From NCBI GenBank assembly GCA_035635575.1, contig DASQAV010000131.1, forward strand, positions 9,860 through 73,859: a stretch of DNA of 64,000 nt, written 5' to 3'. This DNA is from Candidatus Dormiibacterota bacterium (GTDB lineage Bacteria; Eisenbacteria; RBG-16-71-46; SZUA-252). The number at the start of each line of letters is the position of its first letter. The first letter of the stretch is position 1. The notes under the pieces were generated by a model, which saw only the letters and a program-made list of their open reading frames with translations, had not been told where the DNA came from and searched no databases. Below, piece after piece: positions 49,114 through 62,466 of the stretch. The position numbers and the translations under genes are program-made.

Positions 49114-50121
49114 GTGCTCGAAGTCGCTCCCCTCGCCTTCTTCTCGGCCCTGGCGTTGACGCCCCTCGCGCGGCGCCTCGCGCGCGCGACCGGCTACGTG
49201 GATGATCCCGCCGCGCGCAAGGCGCACGCGCAATCCACGCCCCTCCTCGGGGGAGCCGCCGTCGCGGCGGCGCTCGTGATCGCGCCGCTCCTCGCGCGAG
49301 CGATGGGCGCCTCCCCGATCGCGGCGCCCACCACGGGGGTCGTGGTGGGGGCGCTCATCGCGCTCGCGCTGGGATTGATCGACGACCGCCGGCCACTGGG
49401 TCCCAAGTCAAAGCTCCTGGGGCAGCTCTTGGCGGGGGCCTGCCTCGTCTACTGGGGGACCTCGGTGCCGGAGCTCCGCCTGAACCCCATCCTGGGAATC
49501 CTCGCGGTGGTCGCGGTCGCGGCGTTGCTCAACGCGATGAACTTCCTGGACAACATGGACGGCATCCTTGGCGCGCTCGTCCCGGTGACCGCGTGCGGCT
49601 TCGCGGCGCTCGCCCTGATCCACGGCACGCCCGTGGACCTTGGCCTCGCGTTCGGGCTGATCGGCGCGTGCGCCGGATTCCTTGTCTATAACGCGCCCCC
49701 CGCGCGGATCTTTCTTGGCGACGCGGGCAGCCATCTCCTCGGCTTCAGCCTCGCGGCGCTCGCGCTGCAGTCGCTCCAGGGATCCTTCACGCTGCCGCAT
49801 CTCGCCGCGGTCCTTCTCATCCTTGCGTATCCGATTTTTGACGCCACGTTCGTGGTGTGGGACCGCGTTGTAGGACGCCGTCCATTCTACGTAGGCGGTA
49901 CGGACCACACGACACATCGGCTCGGGAAGCGCTTCGGGAAGTGGGGAACCATCGCAATCGTGTCACTTGCGTCCTCTCTGAACGCATGGCTCGGCGTATG
50001 GACCTGGGGGCGTTCCGACGCCTTGTCAATCGTCTGCGTTTTATGCGTTTCTGCCCTTGGATACGCCCTTTTTGGCACCGTGCTGAGACACATCAGTCCC
50101 ACCACCCAGTTCGTCACTTGA
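49114..50121 (+). CDS. Polyprenyl-phosphate N-acetylhexosamine-1-phosphate transferase (WecA/MraY-family)
   Basis: GTG start 2 nt after the previous stop. Multi-TM protein with the family's NFLDNMDG and FLGDAGS motifs. Confidence 0.8.
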   Translation: MLEVAPLAFFSALALTPLARRLARATGYVDDPAARKAHAQSTPLLGGAAVAAALVIAPLLARAMGASPIAAPTTGVVVGALIALALGLIDDRRPLGPKSKLLGQLLAGACLVYWGTSVPELRLNPILGILAVVAVAALLNAMNFLDNMDGILGALVPVTACGFAALALIHGTPVDLGLAFGLIGACAGFLVYNAPPARIFLGDAGSHLLGFSLAALALQSLQGSFTLPHLAAVLLILAYPIFDATFVVWDRVVGRRPFYVGGTDHTTHRLGKRFGKWGTIAIVSLASSLNAWLGVWTWGRSDALSIVCVLCVSALGYALFGTVLRHISPTTQFVT

Positions 50122-50146
50122 CAAACTCGTTTTACACTTGTATTCT
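50118..50146 (+). promoter_or_regulatory. Candidate sigma70 promoter (-35 TTGACA, 17 nt, -10 TATTCT) upstream of the sigma54 activator gene
   Basis: Read directly: ttgaca (50118-50123), spacer aactcgttttacacttg (17 nt), tattct (50141-50146). It lies in an 87-bp intergenic segment that is unusually AT-rich for this genome. Confidence 0.4.
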
Positions 50147-50208: not shown

Positions 50209-51890
50209 TGACGCAGCGTCCAGATCCGTCTCAACCCAGAGACCCCAGCGCGTCCGAAATGCCCGAGATCGACCCTCTTGAGCGGCTCAGCAGGGGCTTG
50301 ACGCAGTGGGAGCGGGAACTGTTGCAGGAGCCACGGTCGCCCTCGCGGCCGCGTACCGTAACCGACCTCGATCGCATCACGCACGTCCTCCAGGCAGCGC
50401 GATCCGTCACCGGCACCCTCGATATCAATGAGCTCCTGATCCGCGTCGTCGACGCCGTGATCCAGGTGGCCGAAGCCGACCGCGGATTCCTCATGCTCAT
50501 GCACGAGGACGGAAAGCTCCGCTTCGAGGTCGCGCGCAACAAGGACGAGACCACCCTTCCTTCCGACGAATTCCAGATTTCCTGGGGCATCGCCGAGGAA
50601 GCGGCGCACCGCCGGGAAACGGTCTGGGTCGCCGACGCGATGGGCTCCTCGCTCTTCGCGGAGCGGAAGAGCGTTCGCGAGCTCTCCCTCCGCACCGTGG
50701 TCGCGCTCCCGATCCTGAGCAGCGGGCGCGTGCTCGGCGTGCTCTACATCGATTCCCATTCCGTCACGCACGAATTCACTCCGGACACCATCACGCTGCT
50801 CGAGGCATTCGGGGCGCTCTGCGCCGTGGCGCTCGAGAACGCGCGCATGCACGAGGCGCTGCGGGATTCCAAGAGCCGCCTGGAGATCGAGAACCAGAAT
50901 CTGCGGCGCGCCCTCAAAGAGGATTTCCGCTACGGGCTCCTGGTGGGGCGCAGCCCGAAGATGCTCCGGGTGATCGAATTGCTGGAGAAGGTGATCCCGA
51001 CCCAGGTCTCGGTGCTCGTCCAGGGAGAGACCGGCACGGGGAAGGAGCTGATCGCTCGGGCGATCCACATGAACGGTCCGCGCCGCGAAAAGAGCTTCGT
51101 CGCGGTGAACTGCGGCGCCCTTCCCGAGAACCTCCTCGAGAGCGAGCTCTTCGGCTACAAGAAGGGCGCCTTCACGGGCGCCACGGAGGACCGGCCCGGG
51201 CTCTTCGAGGCCGCCGATGCCGGCACGATCTTCCTCGATGAGGTGGGGGAGATGCCCGCGTCTCTGCAAGTGAAGCTCCTCCGCGTCCTGCAAGACGGCC
51301 ACATCCGCCGCGTGGGCGACACGGTCTCGCGCAAGGTGGACGTGCGCCTGGTCGCCGCGACCAACCGCGACCTCAAGGCCGAGGTCGAGGGCGGCCGGTT
51401 CCGGCAGGATCTCTTCTTTCGTATCAACGTCGTGCCGCTCGAGCTGCCGGCGCTCCGCGAACGAGGGGAGGACGTGCTCCTCCTGGCGCAGCACTTCCTC
51501 GATCAATTCGCCAAGCAGCAGCAGCGGAAGCTCCGCGGCCTGACCCCGGAGTCGCGCGAGCTCCTGCTCCGGCATCCCTGGCCGGGGAACGTGCGCGAGC
51601 TGGAAAACGCCATGGCACGCGCCGTGGCGCTGGCCGACGAGGGCGCCTCGCTGGAGCCTTCGCTCTTCGGGCTCGGGGCGCCCGTCACGCGCCGCTGGGA
51701 CGGGCAGCACACGCTGCGGGAGACCCTCGACGCGGTCGAGGCGGATACGATCCGCGAGGCGCTACGGCAGTGCGACCAGAATGTTTCACGCGCGGCACGC
51801 GCGCTGGGCGTGAGCCGGCAGCACCTTCACAATCGGATGAACTCGCACGGCATTCGCCGCTCGCGGGTCATGAACGAGCCGGCCGCATAG
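50209..51890 (+). CDS. Sigma54-dependent transcriptional activator (GAF sensor domain, AAA+ sigma54-interaction domain, Fis-type HTH)
   Basis: Walker [15 protein letters not shown] loop ([10 protein letters not shown]), Walker B/ESELFG, arginine finger region, C-terminal HTH ([19 protein letters not shown]). N-terminal GAF-like domain. Start at ATG 50209 with SD-like aaggggtgggg. Confidence 0.85.
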
Positions 51891-51907
51891 CGGCGAAAGA
51901 AACCCGA

Positions 51908-52930
51908 GTGGCGCCTCACGTCGAGCGCCGGCTCGCTTCGCTCCGCGCGATTCTCATGCAGAGCGACGCCGAGATCCGCGCACAGTACCCCGAATATTTC
52001 CTCACGTACTATACGTATCTCCGCATCCTCCGGAATCCCGCCCGCATCGAGCACGTCTTCCAGAAAGCCCACGACATGTACCGGTACCTGGAAGCGGAGG
52101 GGAAGGACGTCCTGGACCTGGGCGCGGGGTTCGGCATCGAGGCGCTCCTGGTCGCGATCTATGGAGCGCGCCGGGTGGTCGCCACGGAGATCGATCATGA
52201 CATGGTGGAGGTCGGGCGGTACCTCGCCGAGCGGATGGATCCGCCCATGGCCAATTTCGAATCGAAGTACGGGGACGGGATCTCGATGCAGCTCCCCTCC
52301 GGTAGCTTCGACGGGATCATGACCAACTGCGTGATCTCCCACGTGCGCGACCTCGAGGGGTTCCTGGCCGAGACGACCCGGCTCCTCCGGCCGGGGGGAA
52401 TCTTCTTCCTGAGCGACGAGAACAATTCCCTCTACCTGCCCGCGCGTCCGCGGCGGCGCCGGGGATGGCGCAGTATGGAGGCCGAGCCGGATGGCCCCTG
52501 GTTCCAAGTGCGCATGGCGTACATCGGGGAGCACGTTCCCCAGCTCAGCGGAAACGAATTGCTGGAAGCGACGCGGATCACGCGGGGGCTCGTGGGCAAG
52601 GACATCATGGACGCCGTCCGCGACTATCGGGAATCGCGCCGTCTCCCGACCCGGCCCGCCTTCCTCTACCGGCATCCGATCGACGGCCAGTACCCCGAGC
52701 GGGAGCTCAACCCCTACTGGCTCATGCGCAAGTTCCGGGACCAAGGCCTCACTCCGGAGCTTCTTCCCGCGTTCTTTTCCCGGGGGATCGAGAACCATCC
52801 CCGGCAATGGGTGAAGGACGTTCTTCGCCTTCTCTGCACCGCGTGCCCCGCGCTTTCGGTCTACGTCTGGCCCATCATGAGGCTGCGGGGAAGAAAACCC
52901 GTGTTGACACCTTCCGCCGGCGTCTCCTAG
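51908..52930 (+). CDS. Class I SAM-dependent methyltransferase
   Basis: Motif I VLDLGAGFGIEAL. Post-I acidic residue (VATEID). Motif II-like (FDGIMTNCVISHV) and motif III (LRPGGIFFLSDE). GTG start at 51908 chosen because the tracked upstream Met lies inside the activator gene. Confidence 0.6.
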   Translation: MAPHVERRLASLRAILMQSDAEIRAQYPEYFLTYYTYLRILRNPARIEHVFQKAHDMYRYLEAEGKDVLDLGAGFGIEALLVAIYGARRVVATEIDHDMVEVGRYLAERMDPPMANFESKYGDGISMQLPSGSFDGIMTNCVISHVRDLEGFLAETTRLLRPGGIFFLSDENNSLYLPARPRRRRGWRSMEAEPDGPWFQVRMAYIGEHVPQLSGNELLEATRITRGLVGKDIMDAVRDYRESRRLPTRPAFLYRHPIDGQYPERELNPYWLMRKFRDQGLTPELLPAFFSRGIENHPRQWVKDVLRLLCTACPALSVYVWPIMRLRGRKPVLTPSAGVS

Positions 52931-52940
52931 TCTCGCGCCG

Positions 52941-54149
52941 ATGCGAACCGGCCTCCTGAGCCGCGCCCGCGAGCGCCGACCGCAATTCGCAGCGCCGCTC
53001 CTCGCGTCGCTTCTCGTTCTCCTTTCCTCTCCCGCGTTCGCCGCATCCCCCGAGACCTCGCCGCCTCCTGCCGCGGATCTTCCCGCCCCCACGGGCTTCT
53101 CCGCGAAGGATCGCCCCGGGGATTCTGGGAACGCGACCTTGCTGACGTGGAAGGATCCGTCCGGGGTGCCCGAAGGCGCGATGATCCAGATCCGCCGCGC
53201 GGTTCCGCCCGCGTACGACTGGACCGACATCGCGACGGTGAAGCTGGGTGTGGAGCGTTACGAGGACACGACGGCGAAAGACGGCGTTGTCTACCGCTAC
53301 GAGATCGCGGTAACCGTTCCCGCCGCTGGAGTTTCGGGCCCGCCGGTCGTGAGCGACCCCGTTGCCTCGCACGACAACTGGTTCAGCAAGGACCGCACGA
53401 ATTCCTTCATCGCCTCGGTCCTCTTCATCTTCATCCTCCTGATCTCCATCACGATGGCGAAATCGGGGAAGAACATCTTCATCCGGCGCATTGCGGGGTT
53501 GAACGCCATCGACGAGGCGATCGGGCGCGCCACCGAGGTCGGGAAGAAGGTGCTCTACATTCCCGGGATCCAGAGCATGGACGAGATCCAGACCATCGCC
53601 TCGATCTCGATCCTGGGCCACGTGGCGCGCGCGACCGCGCGCTACGGTGCGGACCTGGACGTCGCGAATCGCGACCCGCTCACGTTTGCCTCGGCACGCG
53701 AGGTGGTGCGCTCGGCCTACCTCGAGGAGGGACGACCCGACCTCTTTCGCGAGGAGATGGTGAACTACGTCACGTACGACCAGTTCGCGTTCACCGCCGC
53801 GGTATCCGCGCGGATGATCCGGGAGAAACCGGCGGCGATCTTCCTCATCGGGTACTTCTTCGCCGAATCGCTCATCCTCGCTGAAACGGGGCAATCCACC
53901 GGGGCCATCCAGATCGCCGGCCAGGCGGACCCGACCCAGCTCCCGTTCTTCGTCGCGACCTGCGACTACACGCTCATCGGCGAGGAGCTCTACGCGGCGA
54001 GCGCCTACCTCACGCGCGAGCCGATCCTCCTGGGCTCGATGCGCGCCCAGGATATCGCCAAGGGCATCGTCATCGTGCTCGGGATCGGGGGCATCATCGT
54101 GACGAGCCTGGGCCTGACCTGGTTCCCGGACCTCTTCAAGACCAAATGA
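52941..54149 (+). CDS. Uncharacterised protein: signal peptide, FN3-like domain, TM helix, about 230-aa internal domain, C-terminal TM helix
   Basis: Signal peptide (LLASLLVLLSSPAFAASP). FN3-like segment (PAPTGFS…LLTWKDP…YRYEI). Hydrophobic helices FIASVLFIFILLISITMA and IVIVLGIGGIIVTSLGLTWF. No recognisable catalytic motif. Confidence 0.5.
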   Translation: MRTGLLSRARERRPQFAAPLLASLLVLLSSPAFAASPETSPPPAADLPAPTGFSAKDRPGDSGNATLLTWKDPSGVPEGAMIQIRRAVPPAYDWTDIATVKLGVERYEDTTAKDGVVYRYEIAVTVPAAGVSGPPVVSDPVASHDNWFSKDRTNSFIASVLFIFILLISITMAKSGKNIFIRRIAGLNAIDEAIGRATEVGKKVLYIPGIQSMDEIQTIASISILGHVARATARYGADLDVANRDPLTFASAREVVRSAYLEEGRPDLFREEMVNYVTYDQFAFTAAVSARMIREKPAAIFLIGYFFAESLILAETGQSTGAIQIAGQADPTQLPFFVATCDYTLIGEELYAASAYLTREPILLGSMRAQDIAKGIVIVLGIGGIIVTSLGLTWFPDLFKTK

Positions 54150-54946
54150 ACTTCGAATTCGGACGCGTCGCTCTCGTCGTGCTCTTCGCCCTCCTGCCGA
54201 TCGTGGGGATCGCGCTCGGCTTCTTCGTTCCGGCCCTCCGCGCGCGGGGGCCGCTCTTCGTGGCCTTCTTCGCCGGTATCATCCCGATTCTTTCGCTCTA
54301 CATTCCGAGGCAATTCCTCTCGGGCGAGACGGGGATGAGACCGAGGCTCGACCAGTGGCTCATCATCGTCTACGGGTTCGCGCTCCTGCTCGGGATCGTG
54401 AACGTAATCCAGAATGGATCGCGCAAGATCGCCCGCCGCGAGAAGGGATGGCCCTACTCCGCCGTGCTGATGACAGGCCTGTTCCTCACGGGAGGGCTGG
54501 GCATCTGGGGGGCGGTCTCGGGGCAGGGGATCACGACGCTCCCGGACGGATCGGGAACGCCCTTCAAGTGGATCGCGGATCATTTCTTCCTGCCGCTCCA
54601 GGCCACCATCTTCGCGCTCCTCGCGTTCTTCATGGCCTCGGCCGCATTCCGCGCGTTCCGCGCCAGAAACACCGAGGCCACCATCCTCCTCGCCGCCGGC
54701 ATCGTCGTCATGGCGGGCCGCGTTCCCTTGCTCGAGTTCCTGTCGTCTCCGTTCCCCCCGCTTCAGCCCACCGCGGCGGTCGCGAGTCAGGGGTTGGGGA
54801 AGCTGACCGAGTGGATCATGAGCACCCCCAACGGCGCGGCCCAGTCGGGCATCATCATCGGCGCGGCGCTCGGCGCCGCCTCGATGGCAATCCGAGTCAT
54901 CCTCGGGATCGAGCGTGGGTACCTGGGTCTCGGAGGAGGGGAGTAG
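54146..54946 (+). CDS. Uncharacterised polytopic membrane protein (about 7 TM)
   Basis: ATG overlaps the previous stop (ATGA). 266 aa, almost entirely hydrophobic helices. No recognised motif. Confidence 0.5.
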   Translation: MNFEFGRVALVVLFALLPIVGIALGFFVPALRARGPLFVAFFAGIIPILSLYIPRQFLSGETGMRPRLDQWLIIVYGFALLLGIVNVIQNGSRKIARREKGWPYSAVLMTGLFLTGGLGIWGAVSGQGITTLPDGSGTPFKWIADHFFLPLQATIFALLAFFMASAAFRAFRARNTEATILLAAGIVVMAGRVPLLEFLSSPFPPLQPTAAVASQGLGKLTEWIMSTPNGAAQSGIIIGAALGAASMAIRVILGIERGYLGLGGGE

Positions 54947-54947
54947 C

Positions 54948-55832
54948 GTGGCGCGATTCTTCGACAAGTTGCTGAATCTGGACCGGCGCTGGCTCTTCCT
55001 TCTCGTGTTCCTAGGCGTTGCTGTTCCCATCATCCTGCCGATCGGCCTGCCCGTGACCACGACCGGCCCAACCCGCTCCGCCTTCGAATATATCGAGGCC
55101 TTGAAGCCCGGCGACTACGTCATCATCTCTTTCGATTACGGTCCCTCCTCCGCTCCTGAGAACGACCCGATGGCCGAGGGGATCATGCGGCAGTGCTTCC
55201 TCAAGAAAATCCGCGTGGTGGTCATCGTGCTCTACCAGCTTGGGGGACTCCAGCTCGCGAGCAATTCCGTCGCCAAGGTCTCGGCGGAATTCCCCAATCT
55301 CAAATATGGCGTGGACTATGTGAACCTGGGCTACAAGGACGGGGCCGCGGCGGTCATGAAGCGGATGGGGGACGACATCGCGGGCGCCTTTCCGACCGAC
55401 GTGCGCGGCACACCGCTCTCCCAGATTCCCATCATGAAGGGGCTGAGAAGCCTCCGTCAGGTAAGCGTGGTCGTCACCGTCGCCACCGGGCTCATCGGCG
55501 AGTACTGGATCACGCAGGCCCACCAGCAGAGCGGCGTGCCGGTAATCGTCGGTCCGACCGCCGTGGGCGCGCCGAAGTACTACGCCTACCTGAACGCGGG
55601 GCAGCTGGTGGGGATGCTCGGTGGGATGAAGGGGGCCGCGGAATACGAGAAGCTTCTCGCCGCGCGCTACCCGGAGCTGGGGCGCTTCTACAAGACGACC
55701 CGCGCGTTCACCGCCACGAAGGGGATGGACGCCCAGACCGTCATCCACTTCGTCATCATCCTGTTCATCCTGATCGGGAACATCGCATTCATGAGCCGCC
55801 GCGCAGCGCAGAAGAAGGCGGCTGCGCGATGA
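54948..55832 (+). CDS. Uncharacterised bitopic protein (N-terminal TM, about 210-aa extracytoplasmic domain, C-terminal TM + basic tail)
   Basis: GTG at 54948 immediately after the previous stop. TM helix WLFLLVFLGVAVPIILPIGL and C-terminal VIHFVIILFILIGNIAFM. The tracked Met (54915) would overlap the upstream gene. Confidence 0.45.
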   Translation: MARFFDKLLNLDRRWLFLLVFLGVAVPIILPIGLPVTTTGPTRSAFEYIEALKPGDYVIISFDYGPSSAPENDPMAEGIMRQCFLKKIRVVVIVLYQLGGLQLASNSVAKVSAEFPNLKYGVDYVNLGYKDGAAAVMKRMGDDIAGAFPTDVRGTPLSQIPIMKGLRSLRQVSVVVTVATGLIGEYWITQAHQQSGVPVIVGPTAVGAPKYYAYLNAGQLVGMLGGMKGAAEYEKLLAARYPELGRFYKTTRAFTATKGMDAQTVIHFVIILFILIGNIAFMSRRAAQKKAAAR

Positions 55833-56470
55833 CGCCCATGCCCGATATCGGGACCTGGGTCGCGGCGCTCCTCACGCTCTTTGCGTTCTCGTTCCTCTAC
55901 AAGGACAACCCTCTATTCCGATTCACCGAGAGCCTGTTCGCCGGGGTCTCGCTGGGGTACTACGTGGGGACGACGCTGAACCAGACGCTGGTTCCGAACC
56001 TCATCAAGCCCCTGACCCACGACTTCAACCAGAACTGGGATCTCCTGGTGCCGGGACTTCTGGGCCTGCTGCTCTACATGCGTTACGTGCCCAAGACCGG
56101 ATGGGTTGCCCGCTACGCGCTCGGGATCTACGTCGCCTACTACATCGGTCTCGATTTCACGAGGCGCATCCACGGCGAGGTGCTGCCGCAGCTGGGGCGG
56201 GCCATCGTTCCGCTCTCGCACCTGGACGGGCACACGATCTTCTATTCCCTGATCTTCGCGATCGGCGTATTCAGCGTGCTGATCTATTTCTTCTTCTCCA
56301 AGGAGCAGGACCAGGTCACGCGGCGCATCGCGCGCGTGGGCATCTGGTTCCTCATGGTCTCCTTTGGAGCGGCCTTCGGATTCACGGTCATGGGGCGCGT
56401 CGCGCTCCTCATCGGCCGCCTCAATTTCCTGATCCTGGATTGGATTTACCCCCTGATCGGAATCCGGTAA
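55829..56470 (+). CDS. Uncharacterised polytopic membrane protein (about 5-6 TM)
   Basis: ATG overlaps the previous stop (ATGA). 213 aa. The tracked ORF from 55193 is an out-of-gene 5' extension. Confidence 0.5.
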   Translation: MTPMPDIGTWVAALLTLFAFSFLYKDNPLFRFTESLFAGVSLGYYVGTTLNQTLVPNLIKPLTHDFNQNWDLLVPGLLGLLLYMRYVPKTGWVARYALGIYVAYYIGLDFTRRIHGEVLPQLGRAIVPLSHLDGHTIFYSLIFAIGVFSVLIYFFFSKEQDQVTRRIARVGIWFLMVSFGAAFGFTVMGRVALLIGRLNFLILDWIYPLIGIR

Positions 56471-56494: not shown

Positions 56495-57193
56495 TCAGGG
56501 TTTCTTTCCCGCCGCGGCCGATGCCTCGAAGTTGACCATCGGTACCGTGTTCTTGTTCCCGGCGGGATATTCCACGGTCACGATGTCGCGCAGCGCGGCG
56601 ATGCGCTGCGTCAGCCCGGCGACCGTCTCGGTCGCGGCGCGGATCCGGGCCACCTTGTCGCGCGCGTCCGCCGGAAGCCCCGGATGGACGTGGAGCAGCT
56701 GGGCATTTCCCTGGATCACTTGCAGCGGATTGTTGATCTCGTGGTTCAGCGCCACCGCCATCGCCGACACCGCCTTCATCCGCTCGATCCGAAGACGCTC
56801 CTCGCTGGCCTGGTGCAGCGCGATCGCGTTCCGCACCTTCAACGGAATCTGAAAGCGAATGTCACACTCCGACAGGGGCTTCGTGAAGTAGTCGATCGCT
56901 CCCAGCTCCAGACTCCGCTGGATGTCGTCCTGCGCCGTGGACGCGCTGGCCACGATGAAGGGGATTCTCGCGAGCGTCTCGCTCTTGCGCATCGTGAGGA
57001 TGACGTCGAAGCCGTTCGGGTGGGGCATCATCAGATCCAGAAGCAGGAGATCGACCCGCTGGGTCTCCATGATCTGGAGCGCCTGCTCGCCGCTCTCCGC
57101 CTCCAGGAAGTTGTAATCCCCCTGGCGCAGCACCATGCGCAGGAGCTTCCGGCTATGGGCCTCGTCGTCAACGACCAGTAGGTGGAACGGCAT
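56495..57193 (-). CDS. Response-regulator receiver domain fused to a HisKA (DHp) domain, lacking an ATPase domain
   Basis: REC motifs (LLVVDDE…DLLLLDLMMP…, K in FTKPL). C-terminal H-box HEINNPLQVIQGNAQLL, with no N/G1/G2 boxes following. 232 aa. Confidence 0.7.
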   Translation of the reverse strand: MPFHLLVVDDEAHSRKLLRMVLRQGDYNFLEAESGEQALQIMETQRVDLLLLDLMMPHPNGFDVILTMRKSETLARIPFIVASASTAQDDIQRSLELGAIDYFTKPLSECDIRFQIPLKVRNAIALHQASEERLRIERMKAVSAMAVALNHEINNPLQVIQGNAQLLHVHPGLPADARDKVARIRAATETVAGLTQRIAALRDIVTVEYPAGNKNTVPMVNFEASAAAGKKP

Positions 57194-57596
57194 GGCTCCT
57201 CTTCGAGATCAGCGTTTCGATCCGTGCGAGCAGATCGTCCGCACTCACGATGGGTTTCGAGACGTAGTCGTCCGCGCCACTCTCTTTCAGGAACTTCTCC
57301 CGGGACCCCTTCATCGCGTGCGCGGTCGCGAGCAGCACCGGCACGTGGCGGGTGGCGGGATCGCTCTTCAGCCTTCGCGTGATCTGGAGCCCGTCGACCG
57401 GCTTGCCGTCCAGGTGGCTGTTCGAGAGCGACACGTCCATGATGACCAGATCCACGCTCCCGGCCTTGATCTCCTGGATGACCCGCAGGGGGTCCTCCGT
57501 GATCTCGATCACGTAATTGCCCTTCCGCGTCAGGATCAGCTGGAAGAGCTTGGCGTTCATCGGGTCGTCTTCGACGATCATGATTCGTTGAGGCAT
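57168..57596 (-). CDS. Single-domain response regulator (CheY-like)
   Basis: IMIVEDDPMN, phospho-acceptor region DLVIMDVSL, T/S and K (SKPI) positions. 142 aa. Overlaps the start of the downstream REC-HisKA gene. Confidence 0.8.
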   Translation of the reverse strand: MPQRIMIVEDDPMNAKLFQLILTRKGNYVIEITEDPLRVIQEIKAGSVDLVIMDVSLSNSHLDGKPVDGLQITRRLKSDPATRHVPVLLATAHAMKGSREKFLKESGADDYVSKPIVSADDLLARIETLISKRSHAVPPTGR

Positions 57597-59896
57597 TCGT
57601 CCCTCGCTGTGCCCGACTCCGCCCGGGGTGGTGCCGCCGGGAACGTCAGGCTGACCCGCGTTCCCTTGCCCGCTCCCTCGCTGACCATCGCGATCTTTCC
57701 GCCCATCCGCTGGACCAGAGACTTCGTGATCACCAGGCCGAGCCCGGCACCCTGGTGGCGCCGCTTGTAGGATCCATCGACCTGCGAGAACTTCACGAAG
57801 AGGCGCGCCTGATCCTCCCTGGCGACCCCGATGCCGGTGTCTTCGATGACAATCCGGATCTCGTCGGGGAACTCGTGCCTGGACGCTCGCACCCTCACCC
57901 CTCCCTTATCGGTGAACTTGACCGCGTTCCCAAGCAGGTTCAGGAGCACCTGGCGGAGGCGTGCCGGATCAAGCTGCATCTCCAGGGGGTACGAGGGCGT
58001 ATCGGCGGTGAGCCCGATCCCCTTGCGGGCCGCCGCGGGGCGCAGCGTGTCCACCGCCGCCAGGAGGGTCGGCGCCGCATCTCCCGCTTCCAGGGCCATT
58101 TCCAGCTTGCCCGCCTCCACTTTCGCGAGATCCAGGATGTCGTTGATCACCACGAGGAGGTGCTCGGCGCTTTCCCGGATGGAACGGGCGAAGGTCCGGC
58201 CCTCCTTCTCCGATTGGGCGACGCCCTGCTCGAGAAGGGTGGCAAAGCCGATCACGGCGTTGAGGGGAGTGCGGAGCTCGTGGCTCGTGTTGGCCAGGAA
58301 CTCGTTCTTCATGCGACTCCCTTCGGCCAGCTTCTCGTTCGCCGTCTGCAGCTGCTCATTGATCAGCTCCAGCTGCTCGGTTCGGTTCTGGATCACCTCT
58401 TCGCGCTCGCGCCGATCGCTGATGTCGCGGCCGACGATCACCCAGGCGTCCTCGCTCCCCTCGCGGTTCATCGCCTTGGAGACGGTGGCCTCGGCGGGGA
58501 ATTGCCCGCCGCCCACCATGCAGCACGCCAGCTCGCCCTGGAATCCGCCTTGGTCGCCGAGAACCCGGAGCAGGGAGGCGCGGTCGGCGCGATCCAGGGG
58601 AACGAACATGCTCTCGATCTCGCGGCCGCGGAGCTCTTCGTCGGGAGTGTTCCCCAGCGCGCGGCGCGCGGCGGGGTTGGCGTACGTGACCTTGCCCTCG
58701 AGATCGAACCCGACCAGCATCTCGTCGGTGCCGCGCATGTAGGAGGCGAGGAGCTGATCGCGCGATTCGAGCTGGATCCGCTTCAGTCCCTGCGTGAGCT
58801 GGCCCGCGAGCCAGCGGATCAAGGTCACGTCATTGGGAGCGAACTCCCGGGACTCTCCGGCGAAGCACTGCAGCACTCCCGTCGGATTTCCCCGCTCGAG
58901 CAAGGGCACGGAGCACACGCTGGGGCTCGACTGCTCGGGGTCCATCTCCCGGGGCTCGAGCGCGGAGATGCCGCGCATCGCGACGATCGCCAGCGGCCCC
59001 TTCTCGCCGGCGCGGCGGTAGAGCGCCCACTCCTGAAACCCGGTCGCCTCCGCCATCGTGTCCAGCGCGGTCCGGATCAGGTCCCCTTCGCTTCCCGCCC
59101 GCATCATGACCTCGGCCAGCCGGTGGATGCTGAGACGGGCGTGAATGTTCCGGTTCCGTTCCTGCTCGAGATGGCGCTTTCGGTAGCGGTCGTATCCGGT
59201 GAACCCGATTCCGCCCAGCAGGACCACGCACACCGCGATGGCCTCGGCGCGGAAGCGGCGCTCGGATCGAAGGGCGGCCTCCGCCCCCACGTCGACCACC
59301 AGGACCGCGACCGCCTTGCCCTCCTTGTCCCGGATGGGTGCGTAGCCTCCGAGCCAGCTTCCGTGCCGATCCTCGAAGGGCGCGGGGTCCGCGGTGGGAC
59401 CGGACATGCCGTGCTGGACTTGCGGGCGCGCTACGGCGTTGAAGAGGTCCCCACGATGGATCTGCTCCTTGGGATCCGCCACGGCGTCGAGCGCGAACCG
59501 CCAGTTCCTGGAACGCGGCCCCGGCGTGAGCACGAAGATCCTTCTCACGTCGGGGTTGGCCTGCCGCGCGGCGATCAGCCGGGCGCAGAGCTCGCCATAT
59601 TGCGGGGTGGTCTCGTCCGTCCGCGAGCCGAGCGCCTGAAGCTCATCGGCCGGAATGCCTCCCGCGATCGTCGCCGCGAGGGCGGCCACCCGGACGCGCC
59701 CCTCCTGGTGGAGCCGCTCGCTGAGATACGCGGTCAGCGCGCAGACGAGCGCGACCGTGAGGGTCGCGGTGAGCGCCGTGAGCCACGCGTAATGCGCGCG
59801 AATCTTCCCGATGTTCTGCGGGCTTCCCGGCGTGGACGCGGCAGACTGGGACTCCGGCCGCCCCGGCTTGCTCGAGGCAATATGGCTCTCTGGCAA
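57578..59896 (-). CDS. Membrane sensor histidine kinase (periplasmic sensor domain, GAF, PAS, HisKA, HATPase_c)
   Basis: N-terminal TM. Extracytoplasmic roughly 170-aa domain. Second TM. H-box NTSHELRTPLNAVIGF. N box LLNLLGNAVKFT. G1 EDTGIG. G2 GAGLGLVI. 772 aa. Confidence 0.8.
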   Translation of the reverse strand: MPESHIASSKPGRPESQSAASTPGSPQNIGKIRAHYAWLTALTATLTVALVCALTAYLSERLHQEGRVRVAALAATIAGGIPADELQALGSRTDETTPQYGELCARLIAARQANPDVRRIFVLTPGPRSRNWRFALDAVADPKEQIHRGDLFNAVARPQVQHGMSGPTADPAPFEDRHGSWLGGYAPIRDKEGKAVAVLVVDVGAEAALRSERRFRAEAIAVCVVLLGGIGFTGYDRYRKRHLEQERNRNIHARLSIHRLAEVMMRAGSEGDLIRTALDTMAEATGFQEWALYRRAGEKGPLAIVAMRGISALEPREMDPEQSSPSVCSVPLLERGNPTGVLQCFAGESREFAPNDVTLIRWLAGQLTQGLKRIQLESRDQLLASYMRGTDEMLVGFDLEGKVTYANPAARRALGNTPDEELRGREIESMFVPLDRADRASLLRVLGDQGGFQGELACCMVGGGQFPAEATVSKAMNREGSEDAWVIVGRDISDRREREEVIQNRTEQLELINEQLQTANEKLAEGSRMKNEFLANTSHELRTPLNAVIGFATLLEQGVAQSEKEGRTFARSIRESAEHLLVVINDILDLAKVEAGKLEMALEAGDAAPTLLAAVDTLRPAAARKGIGLTADTPSYPLEMQLDPARLRQVLLNLLGNAVKFTDKGGVRVRASRHEFPDEIRIVIEDTGIGVAREDQARLFVKFSQVDGSYKRRHQGAGLGLVITKSLVQRMGGKIAMVSEGAGKGTRVSLTFPAAPPRAESGTARDECLNES

Positions 59897-60019: not shown

Positions 60020-61213
60020 GTGCGTCTGAACCCGATCCTAGGTCTCTTGCTGGTGTGCCTGGTCGCAGCACCCCTCCCGGGGTGCTCGCGCAAGGCGGAA
60101 AAGCTGGTGGGAGCCGGCCGCGTGATCCGCGGCCCCGGGGGCCTTGGAACGACGACGCGCGTCCAGCCCACGCCCGACCGCGATACGTACGTGGAGCCCG
60201 GGACGGCGGACTTCGGCGACCTCCTCATCGTCGGGAGCGACACCCTCTTCACCGCGCGCATCTTGATGGCGGTCGCTTCCTGGAGCGTTCCCAGCGACAC
60301 GCTCCCCGGTTTCTCCCTCGGGCAGGTCTGGCTCGAGGTGCCGCCGGACACCACGTTCTTCGAGGGCGGCAACGTGAATCTCCACCTGACGGGGTCCTCG
60401 TGGGACACGACGTCCGTCGCGTGGCCGGGGCCTGCGCTTTCGACCCTGCTCGGATCCGCCGTCGACGATCGCCTCACGCCGGGTGCGTTCGTCCTTCCCC
60501 TGAATCCCGCCGTGTACGACTCGATGAAGCGCTGGGCGCAGGCTCCGGGCACGGTGCCCGGATTCGCGCTGGAGCGGCCGGGACAGGGATTGCTGGCCTA
60601 CAAGAGCAAGGGATCCCGGTTTCGCGTGGAATACACGCACACCGTCTCGGGGAGCCCAAAGACGGACACGCTCAGCACGACCGTCACGCAGAACTTCTAC
60701 CTGCACTCTCCGATCGCGCCCCCGCCGGCGGGAACCGAATCGGCGCTCATCCTCGGCGGGATCTACAAGGCGGGGCTCGCCCTCCACTTCCCGCTCGATT
60801 CGGTGCCCGCGAAGGTATCGATCGACGAAGCCCTGCTCGTGTTGAAGCAGGTCGTGGGACCGCCCTTCAATCTGGCGAGCTCGGACACGCTCGCAGTCGT
60901 CCAGGTCCGGCGGATCGAGTTGCCCTGGGGCGAGAGCGTCACCGAGAAAGCGCTGCTGGGCGTGGACAACGCCACGACCGCGTCGCGACTCTTGCGCTTG
61001 GCCTATACCGCCGCGGACAGCACGATCCGGATCACCATTCCCGGGCCGCTCATCCGCGAATGGGCCTCGACGTCCTCTTCGAACCAGGGGTTCTTCCTCT
61101 CGCTCGTCCACCGCACGGATCCCAGGCGCAAGTTCCTGATCGGCTCCCGCGAGTCCACGGCTCCTGCCCAGCTTCACGTGACCTACACCGATCTCCCGCC
61201 GGGGAGGTTCTGA
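60020..61213 (+). CDS. Uncharacterised lipoprotein
   Basis: Signal peptide with lipobox LPG|C (MRLNPILGLLLVCLVAAPLPGCS). 397 aa, predicted beta-rich, no recognised motif. Confidence 0.55.
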   Translation: MRLNPILGLLLVCLVAAPLPGCSRKAEKLVGAGRVIRGPGGLGTTTRVQPTPDRDTYVEPGTADFGDLLIVGSDTLFTARILMAVASWSVPSDTLPGFSLGQVWLEVPPDTTFFEGGNVNLHLTGSSWDTTSVAWPGPALSTLLGSAVDDRLTPGAFVLPLNPAVYDSMKRWAQAPGTVPGFALERPGQGLLAYKSKGSRFRVEYTHTVSGSPKTDTLSTTVTQNFYLHSPIAPPPAGTESALILGGIYKAGLALHFPLDSVPAKVSIDEALLVLKQVVGPPFNLASSDTLAVVQVRRIELPWGESVTEKALLGVDNATTASRLLRLAYTAADSTIRITIPGPLIREWASTSSSNQGFFLSLVHRTDPRRKFLIGSRESTAPAQLHVTYTDLPPGRF

Positions 61214-62466
61214 TGCGCCGCCCCGCGTCGGCATTCGCATGGAGGTCCGCGCTCGCCGGCCTCTTCGCGCTCGCCGCACTCGCGGCGCCGGCCGGCGCCA
61301 ATTCGATTCTTTCGGTCGGAGGATTTGGCGAGCCCCAGCTCGAGGAGGCCGCCCGGCTCCGCGCGCTCGGAGGAGCCGGCGCCGCGGAGCACGGACCACG
61401 CGACATCTCGCTCGTCAACCCGGCCTCGCTCTCCGACGTGGATCGGATTCTCCTCCAGATCACCGCACTTCCGGCCGCCCGCCGAATCAGCGCGAGCTCC
61501 GGTATCTCCGAGACCGCGTACGAGACCACATTCCCATCCGCTCGCGGCGTGATCGCCCTGCCGGGAGGAATCGTGATCGCCGGGAGCTACGTCGCGGGTA
61601 CCGACGCCGAGTTCCGCGTGGTCCGCTCGGAGAACCAGGGCGTGCCCTCGACGGTCGAGATCAACGGAACGGGCGGCATGAACTTCCTGCGCGCGAGCGT
61701 GGCGCGGCGCATGGCGCCGCCGCTCAGGATCGGCGTGGACTGGGAGGTGATCTCCGGGAGCTACCGCGAGCTCTGGTTCCGCACCTTCTCCGATCCGGGA
61801 CTCACGCCCGCGCGGGACACGCTGGAGACGAGGTATCCCAAGAAGGCTCGCTGGAGATTCGGAGCGCAATTCGTACACGAAGGCTGGACCCTGGGCGGCG
61901 TCTTCGAGACCTCGCAGAATCTCCCGGTCGAGCAGCGGCAGTCCACCGGCGGGGCCTCCGAGACCGCCGTGGTGGGGCGCCTCAAGTATCCGAGCGGGCT
62001 CGCCCTCGGAATCTCCGCGCCGCTCCGGACGCGTCTGCGCGCCGTGGCCCAGTACCGGCGGCAGAACTGGGCCCGCTCCTCCTTTCCGAGCACGCTCGTG
62101 GATTTCCGGGCGCAGCAGCGCTTCTCGTTAGGCATCGAGCGGACGCGCCCGCCGGAGGGAGCGGGCTCGGGGTCGATCTGGAGCCGGATCCCGCTTCGCG
62201 TCGGAGGGTATTTCCTCCAGTGGCCGGATCTCCTGCCCCGGGCGGGAGCGTCCGACATCTCGGGCGGCACCGTGGCGGTCGATGAGCGCGCGCTCACGTT
62301 CGGCGCCGGAATCGTCACGAAGGATCAGGGAGGCGGGCTGGATCTCTCCCTGGAGCTGGGAACGCGGGGGGACAAGGACGCGCTGGGCGTGACCGAGAAG
62401 TTCGCGCGCCTGGGGATTTCATTCCTCGTGAGCGATGAGACGTGGAGGGGGTCGTTCCACCGCTGA
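61213..62466 (+). CDS. Putative outer-membrane beta-barrel protein
   Basis: ATG overlaps the lipoprotein stop (TGATG). Cleavable signal peptide (…ALAALAAPAGA). Alternating hydrophobic/polar pattern with many G/S/T/R-rich turns, consistent with a porin-like barrel. About 417 aa. Confidence 0.45.
   Translation: MRRPASAFAWRSALAGLFALAALAAPAGANSILSVGGFGEPQLEEAARLRALGGAGAAEHGPRDISLVNPASLSDVDRILLQITALPAARRISASSGISETAYETTFPSARGVIALPGGIVIAGSYVAGTDAEFRVVRSENQGVPSTVEINGTGGMNFLRASVARRMAPPLRIGVDWEVISGSYRELWFRTFSDPGLTPARDTLETRYPKKARWRFGAQFVHEGWTLGGVFETSQNLPVEQRQSTGGASETAVVGRLKYPSGLALGISAPLRTRLRAVAQYRRQNWARSSFPSTLVDFRAQQRFSLGIERTRPPEGAGSGSIWSRIPLRVGGYFLQWPDLLPRAGASDISGGTVAVDERALTFGAGIVTKDQGGGLDLSLELGTRGDKDALGVTEKFARLGISFLVSDETWRGSFHR

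What the first reader, a model, noticed from the sequence alone, without database searches (positions are those of the whole stretch)
51908..56470. Candidate undescribed membrane system: methyltransferase plus four translationally coupled, motif-less membrane proteins downstream of a sigma54 activator
After the GAF-sigma54 activator come five genes in one orientation. They are a class I SAM methyltransferase, then four hypothetical proteins whose stops and starts overlap (ATGA, TAG-n-GTG, ATGA). The four are: (1) signal peptide-FN3-like domain-TM-about 230-aa internal domain-TM. (2) a roughly 7-TM polytopic protein. (3) a bitopic protein with a roughly 210-aa extracytoplasmic domain. (4) a roughly 5-TM protein. 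None has a motif I can assign to a known transporter, secretion, motility or polysaccharide family. The stoichiometric coupling suggests a multi-subunit envelope complex, possibly a novel transport or polymer-modification machine. It might be regulated by the adjacent enhancer-binding protein and sensor-kinase module.
Basis: inference. Interest (0 to 1): 0.7.

Follow-up and report, generated by a model that had tools for sequence, protein, structure and literature searches.

The report
Undescribed conserved four-subunit membrane complex
Four overlapping genes encode a membrane-protein set that recurs in the same order, often in two or three tandem copies, in hundreds of uncultured bacterial species; it matches no characterised system, so it looks like a real and still unnamed membrane machine, most likely a transporter.

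Summary
Window 52941-56470 carries four real, overlapping genes (P1-P4) for membrane proteins.

P1 matches Pfam DUF6754 behind a secreted FN3 domain. P2, P3 and P4 match no Pfam, NCBIfam or PDB sequence family.

The block is strongly conserved. At least 576 species genomes encode P1, and 62 of the 80 loci fetched hold a complete P1-P2-P3-P4 cassette across about a dozen candidate phyla. Whole cassettes are often duplicated in tandem as old paralogues (about 50% identity). One natural P3-P4 fusion exists.

The methyltransferase and the sigma54 activator accompany the cassette only in close relatives, and the methyltransferase is missing in two of those. No sigma54 promoter is present. A conserved TTGACA-17/18-TAG(T/G)CT element lies just before P1.

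Function is inferred only. About a quarter of the loci place the cassette inside amino-acid catabolic operons. My best guess (about 0.35) is a new kind of multi-subunit solute uptake system.

The parts
52941..54149 (+). P1, 402 aa. Signal peptide (AFA/AS), extracytoplasmic FN3 domain (about residues 45-135), membrane helix (150-174), cytoplasmic alpha/beta DUF6754 core (about 180-358), C-terminal membrane helix (361-389).
54146..54946 (+). P2, 266 aa, polytopic. It has 7 hydrophobic segments here and 6 in most relatives (about 210 aa). A conserved basic stretch (AAFRAFRAR) lies between membrane helices, and the C-terminus carries a conserved GIER motif.
   Evidence: No Pfam, NCBIfam or PDB match. 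Directly follows P1 in 71 loci. ATGA overlap with P1.
54948..55832 (+). P3, 294 aa. N-terminal membrane helix, roughly 225-aa Rossmann-like alpha/beta domain (predicted periplasmic by the positive-inside rule), C-terminal membrane helix.
55829..56470 (+). P4, 213 aa, 5-6 membrane helices. The N-terminus is probably periplasmic. Conserved YKDNP..F.E and FGASFGYTVM.R motifs.
   Evidence: No Pfam or PDB match. 1966 representative clusters at E<=1e-3. Fusions and N-terminal extensions add one extra membrane helix. ATGA overlap with P3.
52904..52933 (+). Promoter-like element for the cassette: TTGACA (52904-52909), an 18-nt spacer, then TAGTCT (52928-52933, whose TAG is the methyltransferase stop codon). 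It ends 7 nt before the P1 ATG, which implies a leaderless or very short-leader mRNA.
   Evidence: GTTGACAC is invariant, the spacer sequence varies at 17-18 nt, and TAG(T/G)CT is conserved in all 10 Eisenbacteria-clade loci. This includes L001 and L092, where the region is intergenic.
51956..52930 (+). A lineage-specific neighbour, not a core part.
   Evidence: Methyltransf_11, E=5.7e-16. Present only in L002-L008 and L011; absent from L001, L092 and all distant loci.
50259..51890 (+). GAF-sigma54 enhancer-binding protein. A lineage-specific neighbour. A sigma70-like promoter lies at 50118-50146.
   Evidence: Sigma54_activat E=3.2e-72, plus GAF and HTH_8. Promoter scan. Linked to the cassette only in L001-L008, L011 and L092.

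Best explanation
P1-P4 are the four subunits of one conserved, so far undescribed cytoplasmic-membrane complex, here called the DUF6754 cassette.

Shown:
- The four genes are translationally coupled.
- They keep one order across many phyla.
- They duplicate and diverge as a whole set.
- P3 and P4 occur fused in nature.

Inferred anatomy:
- P2 (6-7 helices) and P4 (5-6 helices, N-terminus outside) form the membrane core.
- P3 hangs a Rossmann-like domain on the periplasmic face between two anchoring helices.
- P1 puts an FN3 domain outside and the most conserved part of the system, a roughly 200-aa alpha/beta domain rich in invariant acidic residues, on the cytoplasmic face. That domain could dock on the conserved basic cytoplasmic stretch of P2.

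Inferred function (low confidence): a new type of multi-subunit solute uptake system, probably for amino acids or related small nitrogen compounds. P3 would act as a tethered binding or gating module, P2 and P4 as the permease, and the P1 core as the coupling or regulatory module. Paralogous cassettes would serve different substrates.

In this window the cassette has its own sigma70-type promoter. The methyltransferase and the sigma54 activator are neighbours, not components.
For: Complex:
- Overlapping stops and starts.
- 62 of 80 loci hold 76 complete ordered cassettes in Eisenbacteria, Latescibacterota, WOR-3, Zixibacteria, Poribacteria, Cloacimonadota, TA06, Stahlbacteria, Edwardsbacteria, Ignavibacteria and Planctomycetota.
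- Tandem cassettes have about 50% identity within a genome, and in most cases each copy is closest to a copy at the same position in another genome.
- All four subunits diverge in parallel between paralogous cassettes: 50, 46, 40 and 47% identity.
- P0423 is a P3-P4 fusion.

Topology: hydropathy and charge distribution, the AF2 models, and the extra membrane helix in fusions.

Transport reading:
- Cassettes sit on the same strand inside catabolic operons. In 11 loci they follow a GlmL-like ATPase block, with gcvH/PA/PB upstream in 4-7 of those and lplA downstream in 4.
- In L035, L055, L074, L085-L088 and L091 (downstream arm not recovered in L035), cassettes lie between Fer2_4/Pyr_redox_2/Fer4 and Fer2_BFD/DAO subunit genes of a heteromeric amino-acid dehydrogenase; in L010, L012 and L013 a lone P1 lies next to such genes.
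- P3 is the most divergent subunit between paralogues.
- P2-P4 carry no cofactor-binding Cys/His motifs among their invariant residues; P1 has a single invariant Cys, C341.

Own promoter.
Against: - No transport assay exists, and no similarity to any transporter family or fold was found.
- P3 has one alpha/beta lobe, not the two-lobed clamp of classical binding proteins.
- No ATPase or recognisable ion-coupling motif lies inside the cassette.
- Most loci (about three quarters) have unrelated or housekeeping neighbours (aroK/aroB, metG, prfA/prmC). In this window the neighbours are polysaccharide and regulatory genes.
- Sequence conservation is unusually high for a substrate-specific transporter.
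- An FN3 ectodomain is unusual in transporters.
- The DUF6754 core could not be searched on its own, because FN3 hits filled both PDB fold searches.
Confidence: 0.35

Rival explanations
1. Envelope or polysaccharide machine. The complex would export, modify or anchor a surface polymer, with the FN3 domain and the periplasmic P3 domain handling glycan.
For: - Window neighbours are GT4 and GT2 glycosyltransferases, a Wzx-type flippase, and WbaP- and WecA-like transferases upstream, with GT2 and GT87 downstream.
- The same layout is seen in L092.
- WOR-3 loci have a Wzi-like gene after the cassette (L044, L052, L053, L065) and a Wza-like gene before it (L084).
- FN3 domains are common in carbohydrate-active proteins.
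Against: - Polysaccharide genes adjoin only a minority of loci, and within the Eisenbacteria clade that synteny may simply reflect close relatedness.
- There is no match to Wzx, Wzy, Wzc, ABC-2 or glycosyltransferase families.
- Fold hits to GT-B are no better than those to any other Rossmann fold.
- Tandem paralogous cassettes embedded in gcv and dehydrogenase operons do not fit this reading.
Confidence: 0.15
2. Ion-translocating or energy-coupling membrane module. It would work with soluble partners, using a logic similar to Rnf/Nqr or to the membrane sectors of decarboxylases. Candidate partners are the GlmL-like ASKHA ATPase with the c11 protein, or flavoprotein/ferredoxin dehydrogenases. 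The module would link amino-acid oxidation or ATP hydrolysis to an ion gradient.
For: - The block c13 - GlmL-like ATPase (PF13941) - c11 directly precedes P1 in 12 loci from several phyla, including L089 and L090 where no gcv genes are present.
- c11 has a weak RnfC_N/NqrA_N-type barrel-sandwich N-terminus in 9 of 10 members.
- Ferredoxin and flavoprotein genes flank cassettes.
- P2 and P4 are each about 200-aa proteins with about six helices, like NqrD/E. P3 is anchored with a periplasmic domain, like NqrC.
- Conservation of the cytoplasmic P1 core is very high.
Against: - No Rnf-Nqr, FMN_bind or any other cofactor family match.
- No conserved Cys pairs, heme-ligand pattern or flavinylation motif.
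- Most cassettes lack these partners nearby.
- The size resemblance to Nqr subunits is from my own knowledge, not a test.
Confidence: 0.15
3. Transmembrane sensor or scaffold. The complex would relay an extracytoplasmic cue, sensed by the FN3 and P3 domains, to the cytoplasmic P1 domain. In this clade it would feed the adjacent two-component and sigma54 regulators.
For: - The cassette is flanked by an enhancer-binding protein upstream and by HK-RR-RR genes downstream, in the window and in the closely related Eisenbacteria-clade loci where the downstream flank is present.
- Domains lie on both faces of the membrane.
- Some P4 variants carry an inserted EF-hand region.
Against: - The regulators are linked only in one clade.
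- No known signalling domain is present in P1-P4.
- Two or three tandem paralogous cassettes inside metabolic operons are atypical for sensors.
Confidence: 0.08
4. A five-gene sigma54-dependent operon in which the methyltransferase is a functional subunit or modifier of the membrane complex, exactly.
For: All six genes lie on the same strand with very short gaps: activator, then methyltransferase, then P1 after a 10-nt gap. The arrangement is conserved in L002-L008 and L011.
Against: - The methyltransferase is absent from L001 and L092 and from all distant loci.
- No -24/-12 promoter is present. The window has 12 loose matches against 14 expected by chance, and none lies at 51890-52941.
- A conserved sigma70-type element lies directly before P1.
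Confidence: 0.04

Closest known systems
Pfam DUF6754 (PF20539), with an N-terminal fibronectin type III domain
   Same: P1 is a full-length member: 372.7 bits against a cut-off of 27, covering 254 of 257 profile positions. Public records name relatives 'DUF6754 domain-containing protein' or 'fibronectin type III domain-containing protein'.
   Different: The family has no assigned function, and no paper in the searched library mentions it. It covers only one of the four genes.
Binding-protein-dependent uptake systems (ABC importers, TRAP and TTT transporters)
   Same: The overall logic is similar: an extracytoplasmic alpha/beta domain, two small polytopic subunits and a conserved cytoplasmic module, encoded as a coupled operon, often embedded in catabolic operons and present as paralogous sets.
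   Different: There is no ABC ATPase and no Walker motifs. No BPD_transp, ABC2_membrane, DctP/Q/M or TctA/B/C match was found. P3 is a single lobe anchored at both ends, not a free two-lobed binding protein. The resemblance is architectural only.
Rnf/Nqr ion-translocating complexes
   Same: Subunit sizes and layout are similar: two subunits of about 200 aa with about six helices each, and one anchored periplasmic-domain subunit. Flavoprotein, ferredoxin and RnfC_N/NqrA_N-like proteins are encoded next to some cassettes.
   Different: No sequence match to the Rnf-Nqr or FMN_bind families. No conserved Cys, His or flavinylation motifs. P1 has no counterpart in those complexes.
KTN/RCK (TrkA-N) and other Rossmann-like domains

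Membership tests
Pfam DUF6754 (P1) | Score above the curated gathering threshold over the whole domain model | tested here: met
   372.7 bits against a cut-off of 27; residues 144-397 cover profile positions 2-255 of 257.
Fibronectin type III domain (P1 N-terminus) | Sequence-profile and fold match to FN3 beta-sandwiches | tested here: met
ABC transporter (including ABC-2 permeases, Lpt and Mla types) | A nucleotide-binding subunit with Walker A/B and signature motifs encoded with the permease | tested here: not met
   No ATPase gene within or next to the cassette, in the window or in the 76 cassettes examined. No P-loop family hit in P1-P4.
ABC transporter (including ABC-2 permeases, Lpt and Mla types) | Permease subunits matching ABC membrane-domain families | tested here: not met
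   Scanning 51 P2 and 50 P4 homologues gave only scattered sub-threshold noise; ABC2_membrane_3 appeared in 2 of 51. PDB profile searches returned no hits.
Gliding / type IX secretion motor (GldK/L/M/N) | Sequence match to the Gld families | tested here: not met
   No such Pfam or NCBIfam hits for P1-P4.
Rnf/Nqr complexes | Rnf-Nqr family membrane subunits and an FMN_bind periplasmic subunit with cofactor-binding residues | tested here: not met
   No family hits. The invariant residues of P2-P4 include no Cys and no flavinylation motif.
TRAP / TTT transporters | DctP/Q/M or TctC/B/A family subunits | tested here: not met
   No hits.
Sigma54-dependent operon | A -24 GG / -12 GC promoter (TGGCAC-N5-TTGC) upstream of the regulated genes | tested here: not met
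   The window has 12 matches at up to 2 mismatches against 14 expected, and none lies between 51890 and 52941. No strict match in the EBP-MT or EBP-P1 spacers of the window, L001, L092, L002, L003 or L005. A conserved sigma70-type element is present instead.
KTN/RCK nucleotide-binding domain (P3) | Specific fold match, a GxGxxG nucleotide-binding motif and a cytoplasmic location | tested here: inconclusive
Anti-phage defence systems (PADLOC) | Match to a defence-system protein model | tested here: not met
   No hit for P1-P4. Only the methyltransferase matches a generic MTase region of mad2.
Class I SAM methyltransferase (neighbouring gene) | Match to the Rossmann-type SAM-binding domain families | tested here: met
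   Methyltransf_11 at 59.4 bits (cut-off 21.2), plus Methyltransf_25, _23 and _31. No equivalog-level NCBIfam assignment.

The most novel reading that the evidence does not exclude
The DUF6754 cassette is the founding example of a previously unrecognised class of four-subunit cytoplasmic-membrane machine. It would be unrelated to ABC, TRAP, Rnf/Nqr or secretion systems, and it is seen here mainly in uncultured FCB-type candidate phyla, Poribacteria and Planctomycetota. Rossmann-like modules sit on both faces of the membrane. In some lineages a dedicated ASKHA (GlmL-like) ATPase and a barrel-sandwich protein would act as cytoplasmic partners. On this reading it is a new transport or energy-coupling mechanism rather than a divergent member of a known one.
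Probability: 0.4. Interest if true: 0.8.

Novelty: categorically new. Interest (0 to 1): 0.62.

Why it matters
If the cassette is a new kind of transporter or energy-coupling complex, it fills a gap in the predicted physiology of a dozen uncultured phyla found in soils, sediments, sponges and bioreactors. In those genomes it is highly conserved and often present in several copies, yet it is invisible to annotation: three of the four genes have no family at all.

The work here turns one domain of unknown function into a defined and testable system. It provides:
- four subunits with predicted topology;
- a very confident model for one of them;
- a natural fusion that indicates contact between P3 and P4;
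- candidate cytoplasmic partners (GlmL-like ATPase, c11);
- candidate substrates (glycine, proline, sarcosine-type compounds).

It also shows that the methyltransferase and the sigma54 activator should not be drawn into the system.

Tried and rejected
- **Sequence families.** Pfam and NCBIfam scans of the window proteins found only DUF6754. Pfam scans of 51 P2 and 50 P4 homologues gave only scattered noise. PADLOC gave nothing for P1-P4.
- **PDB sequence profiles.** Profiles of each subunit found only FN3 for P1 and nothing at E<=10 for P2, P3 and P4.
- **Internal relationships.** Profile-profile tests for P1 core against P3, P2 against P4, and for internal repeats in P2 and P4 were all negative (probability below 2%).
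- **Fold searches.** P3 gave only generic Rossmann matches. The two P1 searches were filled by FN3 hits, so the DUF6754 core was never ranked alone. The AlphaFold-database library was not available.
- **Literature.** Searches for DUF6754 and PF20539, and on the phyla and on GlmL, found nothing relevant.
- **c11 and the GlmL-like protein.** Neither has a PDB relative by sequence.
- **Sigma54 promoter.** Searches were negative.
- **RNA genes.** Rfam and tRNA scans of the window were empty.
- **Readings considered and dropped.** Defence system; flagellar or Tol/Exb-type stator (no conserved membrane-embedded Asp and no family hits); PTS and ECF transporters (no family hits). The stator, PTS and ECF comparisons rest partly on my own recall.

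Full report
**1. What is in the window**

Six co-oriented genes lie on the + strand between 50.1 and 56.5 kb:
- a GAF-sigma54 activator (50259-51890);
- four membrane-protein genes: P1 (52941-54149), P2 (54146-54946), P3 (54948-55832) and P4 (55829-56470).

All six have the third-position GC of real genes in this 66-70% GC genome (0.86-0.89).

The window is from a soil metagenome-assembled genome. NCBI labels the identical P1 as 'Candidatus Dormibacteraeota'. The nearest genome loci, however, are Eisenbacteria and Latescibacterota, so that label is doubtful.

**2. The four proteins**

- a signal peptide;
- the FN3 sandwich;
- a membrane helix (150-174);
- a six-stranded alpha/beta domain (about 185-358);
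- a C-terminal membrane helix.

The charge distribution puts the alpha/beta core in the cytoplasm. That core is the best-conserved part of the system, with 56 invariant positions among 115 homologues that are 40-84% identical to the window protein. The invariant segment FAESLILAETG..GAIQIAG falls in the only low-confidence stretch of the model. That pattern fits a partner-contact or ligand site (inference).

P3 gives a very confident model (pLDDT 95.2, pTM 0.90). It has an N-terminal membrane helix, a Rossmann-like domain of about 225 aa, and a long C-terminal helix that re-enters the membrane. Positive charges at both termini place the domain in the periplasm.

P2 has 7 hydrophobic segments here and 6 in most relatives. 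P4 has 5-6.

**3. Conservation**

tblastn and ORF clustering show P1-P2-P3-P4 in this order on one strand in 62 of the 80 loci, 76 cassettes in all. Most of the remaining loci are cut by contig ends. Three loci (L010, L012, L013) have P1 alone.

Going by the record titles, the carriers are:
- Eisenbacteria, Latescibacterota, WOR-3, Zixibacteria, Poribacteria and Cloacimonadota;
- TA06, Stahlbacteria, Edwardsbacteria and CSSED10-310;
- Ignavibacteria and Planctomycetota, including a Brocadiaceae genome.

Nearly all of the record titles mark metagenome-assembled or uncultured genomes.

The P4 family alone has 1966 representative clusters (50% identity level) at E<=1e-3.

In at least 14 loci the whole cassette is repeated two or three times in tandem. 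Copies within a genome are about 50% identical. In most cases each copy is closest to the copy at the same position in another genome, so the duplications are old. All four subunits diverge together between copies (P1 50%, P2 46%, P3 40%, P4 47% identity).

One representative, P0423, is a natural P3-P4 fusion. Its P3 part is 34% identical to the window P3 (E=5e-52), and its P4 part spans residues 369-588. An extra membrane helix lies between the two parts, which places the N-terminus of P4 outside the cell. Together these results make a four-subunit complex the only economical reading.

**4. What does not belong**

The methyltransferase and the activator accompany the cassette only in the closest relatives (L001-L008, L011, L092; P1 at 65-84% identity). 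The methyltransferase is missing even there in L001 and L092, where the activator is followed directly by P1.

There is no sigma54 -24/-12 element upstream of the methyltransferase or of P1. Instead, all ten clade members share an element directly before the P1 start codon:
- an invariant GTTGACAC;
- a 17-18-nt spacer of variable sequence;
- TAG(T/G)CT;
- a further 6-9 nt to the start codon.

In the window this element lies at 52904-52933, and its TAG is the methyltransferase stop codon. In L001 and L092 the same element is intergenic. This looks like the cassette's own sigma70-type promoter, giving a leaderless or very short-leader mRNA (inference from position). A second sigma70-like site precedes the activator at 50118-50146.

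**5. Context elsewhere, and function**

Neighbourhoods are heterogeneous, but two themes recur on the same strand.

(a) In 12 loci from several phyla the cassette is directly preceded by c13 (100-140 aa), then a 600-aa GlmL/MutL-family ASKHA ATPase (PF13941), then c11 (375 aa). The GlmL-like protein scores below threshold for the GlmL equivalogs. c11 has no family, but a weak RnfC_N/NqrA_N-type barrel-sandwich N-terminus in 9 of 10 members. Among these loci, gcvPB lies upstream in seven, gcvH and gcvPA in four, and lplA follows the cassettes in four. L089 and L090 have the block without gcv genes.

(b) In about a dozen further loci one or two cassettes lie between Fer2_4/Pyr_redox_2/Fer4 genes and Fer2_BFD/DAO genes, or next to them. 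These are subunits of a heteromeric proline, sarcosine or Hcn-type amino-acid dehydrogenase; that family assignment comes from the Pfam composition and my own knowledge.

A third, smaller theme is polysaccharide export. It includes the window's own EPS cluster and the Wzi-like and Wza-like genes in WOR-3 loci. Other loci show housekeeping neighbours.

Several observations point the same way:
- the cassette is embedded within catabolic operons;
- it occurs as old paralogous sets;
- P3 is the most divergent subunit between paralogues;
- no cofactor motifs are conserved.

I therefore favour a new multi-subunit solute uptake system for amino-acid-type substrates, at about 0.35. Three rivals remain open: an ion or energy-coupling module working with the ASKHA ATPase or the dehydrogenases (0.15), an envelope or polysaccharide machine (0.15), and a sensor or scaffold (0.08). 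None of these is tested by function here.

**6. Comparison with what is known**

The only existing label is DUF6754 for P1, and no paper in the searchable library mentions it. The system resembles binding-protein-dependent transporters in layout and Rnf/Nqr in subunit sizes. It fails every membership test that could be run (see the table). It is not a defence system.

**7. Verdict**

The feature is real and strongly conserved, and on present evidence it is undescribed. The five-gene, sigma54-regulated framing does not.

Function remains an inference, which limits the score. The system is now well enough defined for multimer modelling, co-purification and uptake assays.

Noticed in passing
L025, L034, L036, L037, L040, L060, L061, L063, L075, L077, L089, L090 (e.g. 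L089:5538-8815, L040:1559-7611): A conserved block lies directly upstream of the cassette on the same strand, and is not present in the window. It runs c13 (100-140 aa, no family), then a 600-aa GlmL/MutL-family ASKHA ATPase, then c11 (375 aa, no family, weak RnfC_N/NqrA_N barrel-sandwich N-terminus). The ATPase scores below the equivalog cut-offs and has no PDB relative by sequence. These may be cytoplasmic partners of the complex.
   Followed up: partly
L085:3732-14797, L086, L087, L088, L091, L055, L074, L035; L010:4450-7751: Cassettes lie between, or next to, genes for a heteromeric FAD amino-acid dehydrogenase: Fer2_4, Pyr_redox_2 and Fer4 upstream, Fer2_BFD/SO_alpha_A3 and DAO downstream. 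In L010, L012 and L013, P1 stands alone beside a fused SoxA/HcnB-like gene plus DAO, with no P2-P4 within 8 kb.
   Followed up: partly
window 52904-52933 and the equivalent positions in L001-L005, L007, L008, L011, L092: A conserved promoter-like element ends 6-9 nt before the P1 start codon: invariant GTTGACAC, variable 17-18-nt spacer, TAG(T/G)CT. In loci that carry the methyltransferase, its TAG doubles as that gene's stop codon. The position implies a leaderless or near-leaderless transcript.
   Followed up: yes
P0423 (598 aa); P0381, P0395, P0398, P0437 (425-500 aa); P0464, P0380, P0457: Three kinds of P4 variant were seen. P0423 is a natural P3-P4 fusion. Four variants carry an insert of roughly 200-280 aa, charged and helical, between helices 4 and 5, and one of them (P0437) has EF-hand motifs. 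Others have an N-terminal signal-anchor followed by a 130-200-aa extracytoplasmic extension.
   Followed up: partly
window 53109-53129 (P1 residues 57-63) and all homologues: The FN3 domain of P1 carries an invariant D-x-P-x-D-x-G motif (DRPGDSG here) together with invariant W70 and R86. It resembles DxDxDG-type calcium-binding loops; that comparison is from my own recall and was not tested.
   Followed up: no
window 56495-59896 (- strand): Convergent with the cassette lie three regulatory genes: a response regulator with a C-terminal HisKA-like region but no ATPase domain (56495-57193), a single-domain response regulator (57168-57596), and a 772-aa PAS/HisKA/HATPase sensor kinase (57578-59896). 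The trio is conserved with the cassette in the Eisenbacteria clade.
   Followed up: no
window about 60038-62457 (+ strand; L081:17098-19517): Two adjacent genes of 388 and 417 aa have no Pfam family. They lie between the sensor kinase and GT2/GT87-type glycosyltransferase genes, and are conserved in L092 and in clade loci (clusters c23 and c50).
   Followed up: no
whole window: NCBI labels the identical P1 protein as coming from a 'Candidatus Dormibacteraeota' MAG. The closest genome loci (84-72% identity, same synteny) are Eisenbacteria and Latescibacterota, so the bin label is probably wrong. The 64 kb hold no tRNA gene and no Rfam match.
   Followed up: partly
L084:10001-19994 (WOR-3 chromosome CP070664.1): Here P1 is followed by an 89-aa gene and a roughly 5-kb run of about 15 very small genes, mostly on the opposite strand (DUF7717, DUF7417, Metallophos). 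Genes of 658, 301 and 232 aa follow on the + strand. This looks like an insertion that splits a cassette.
   Followed up: no
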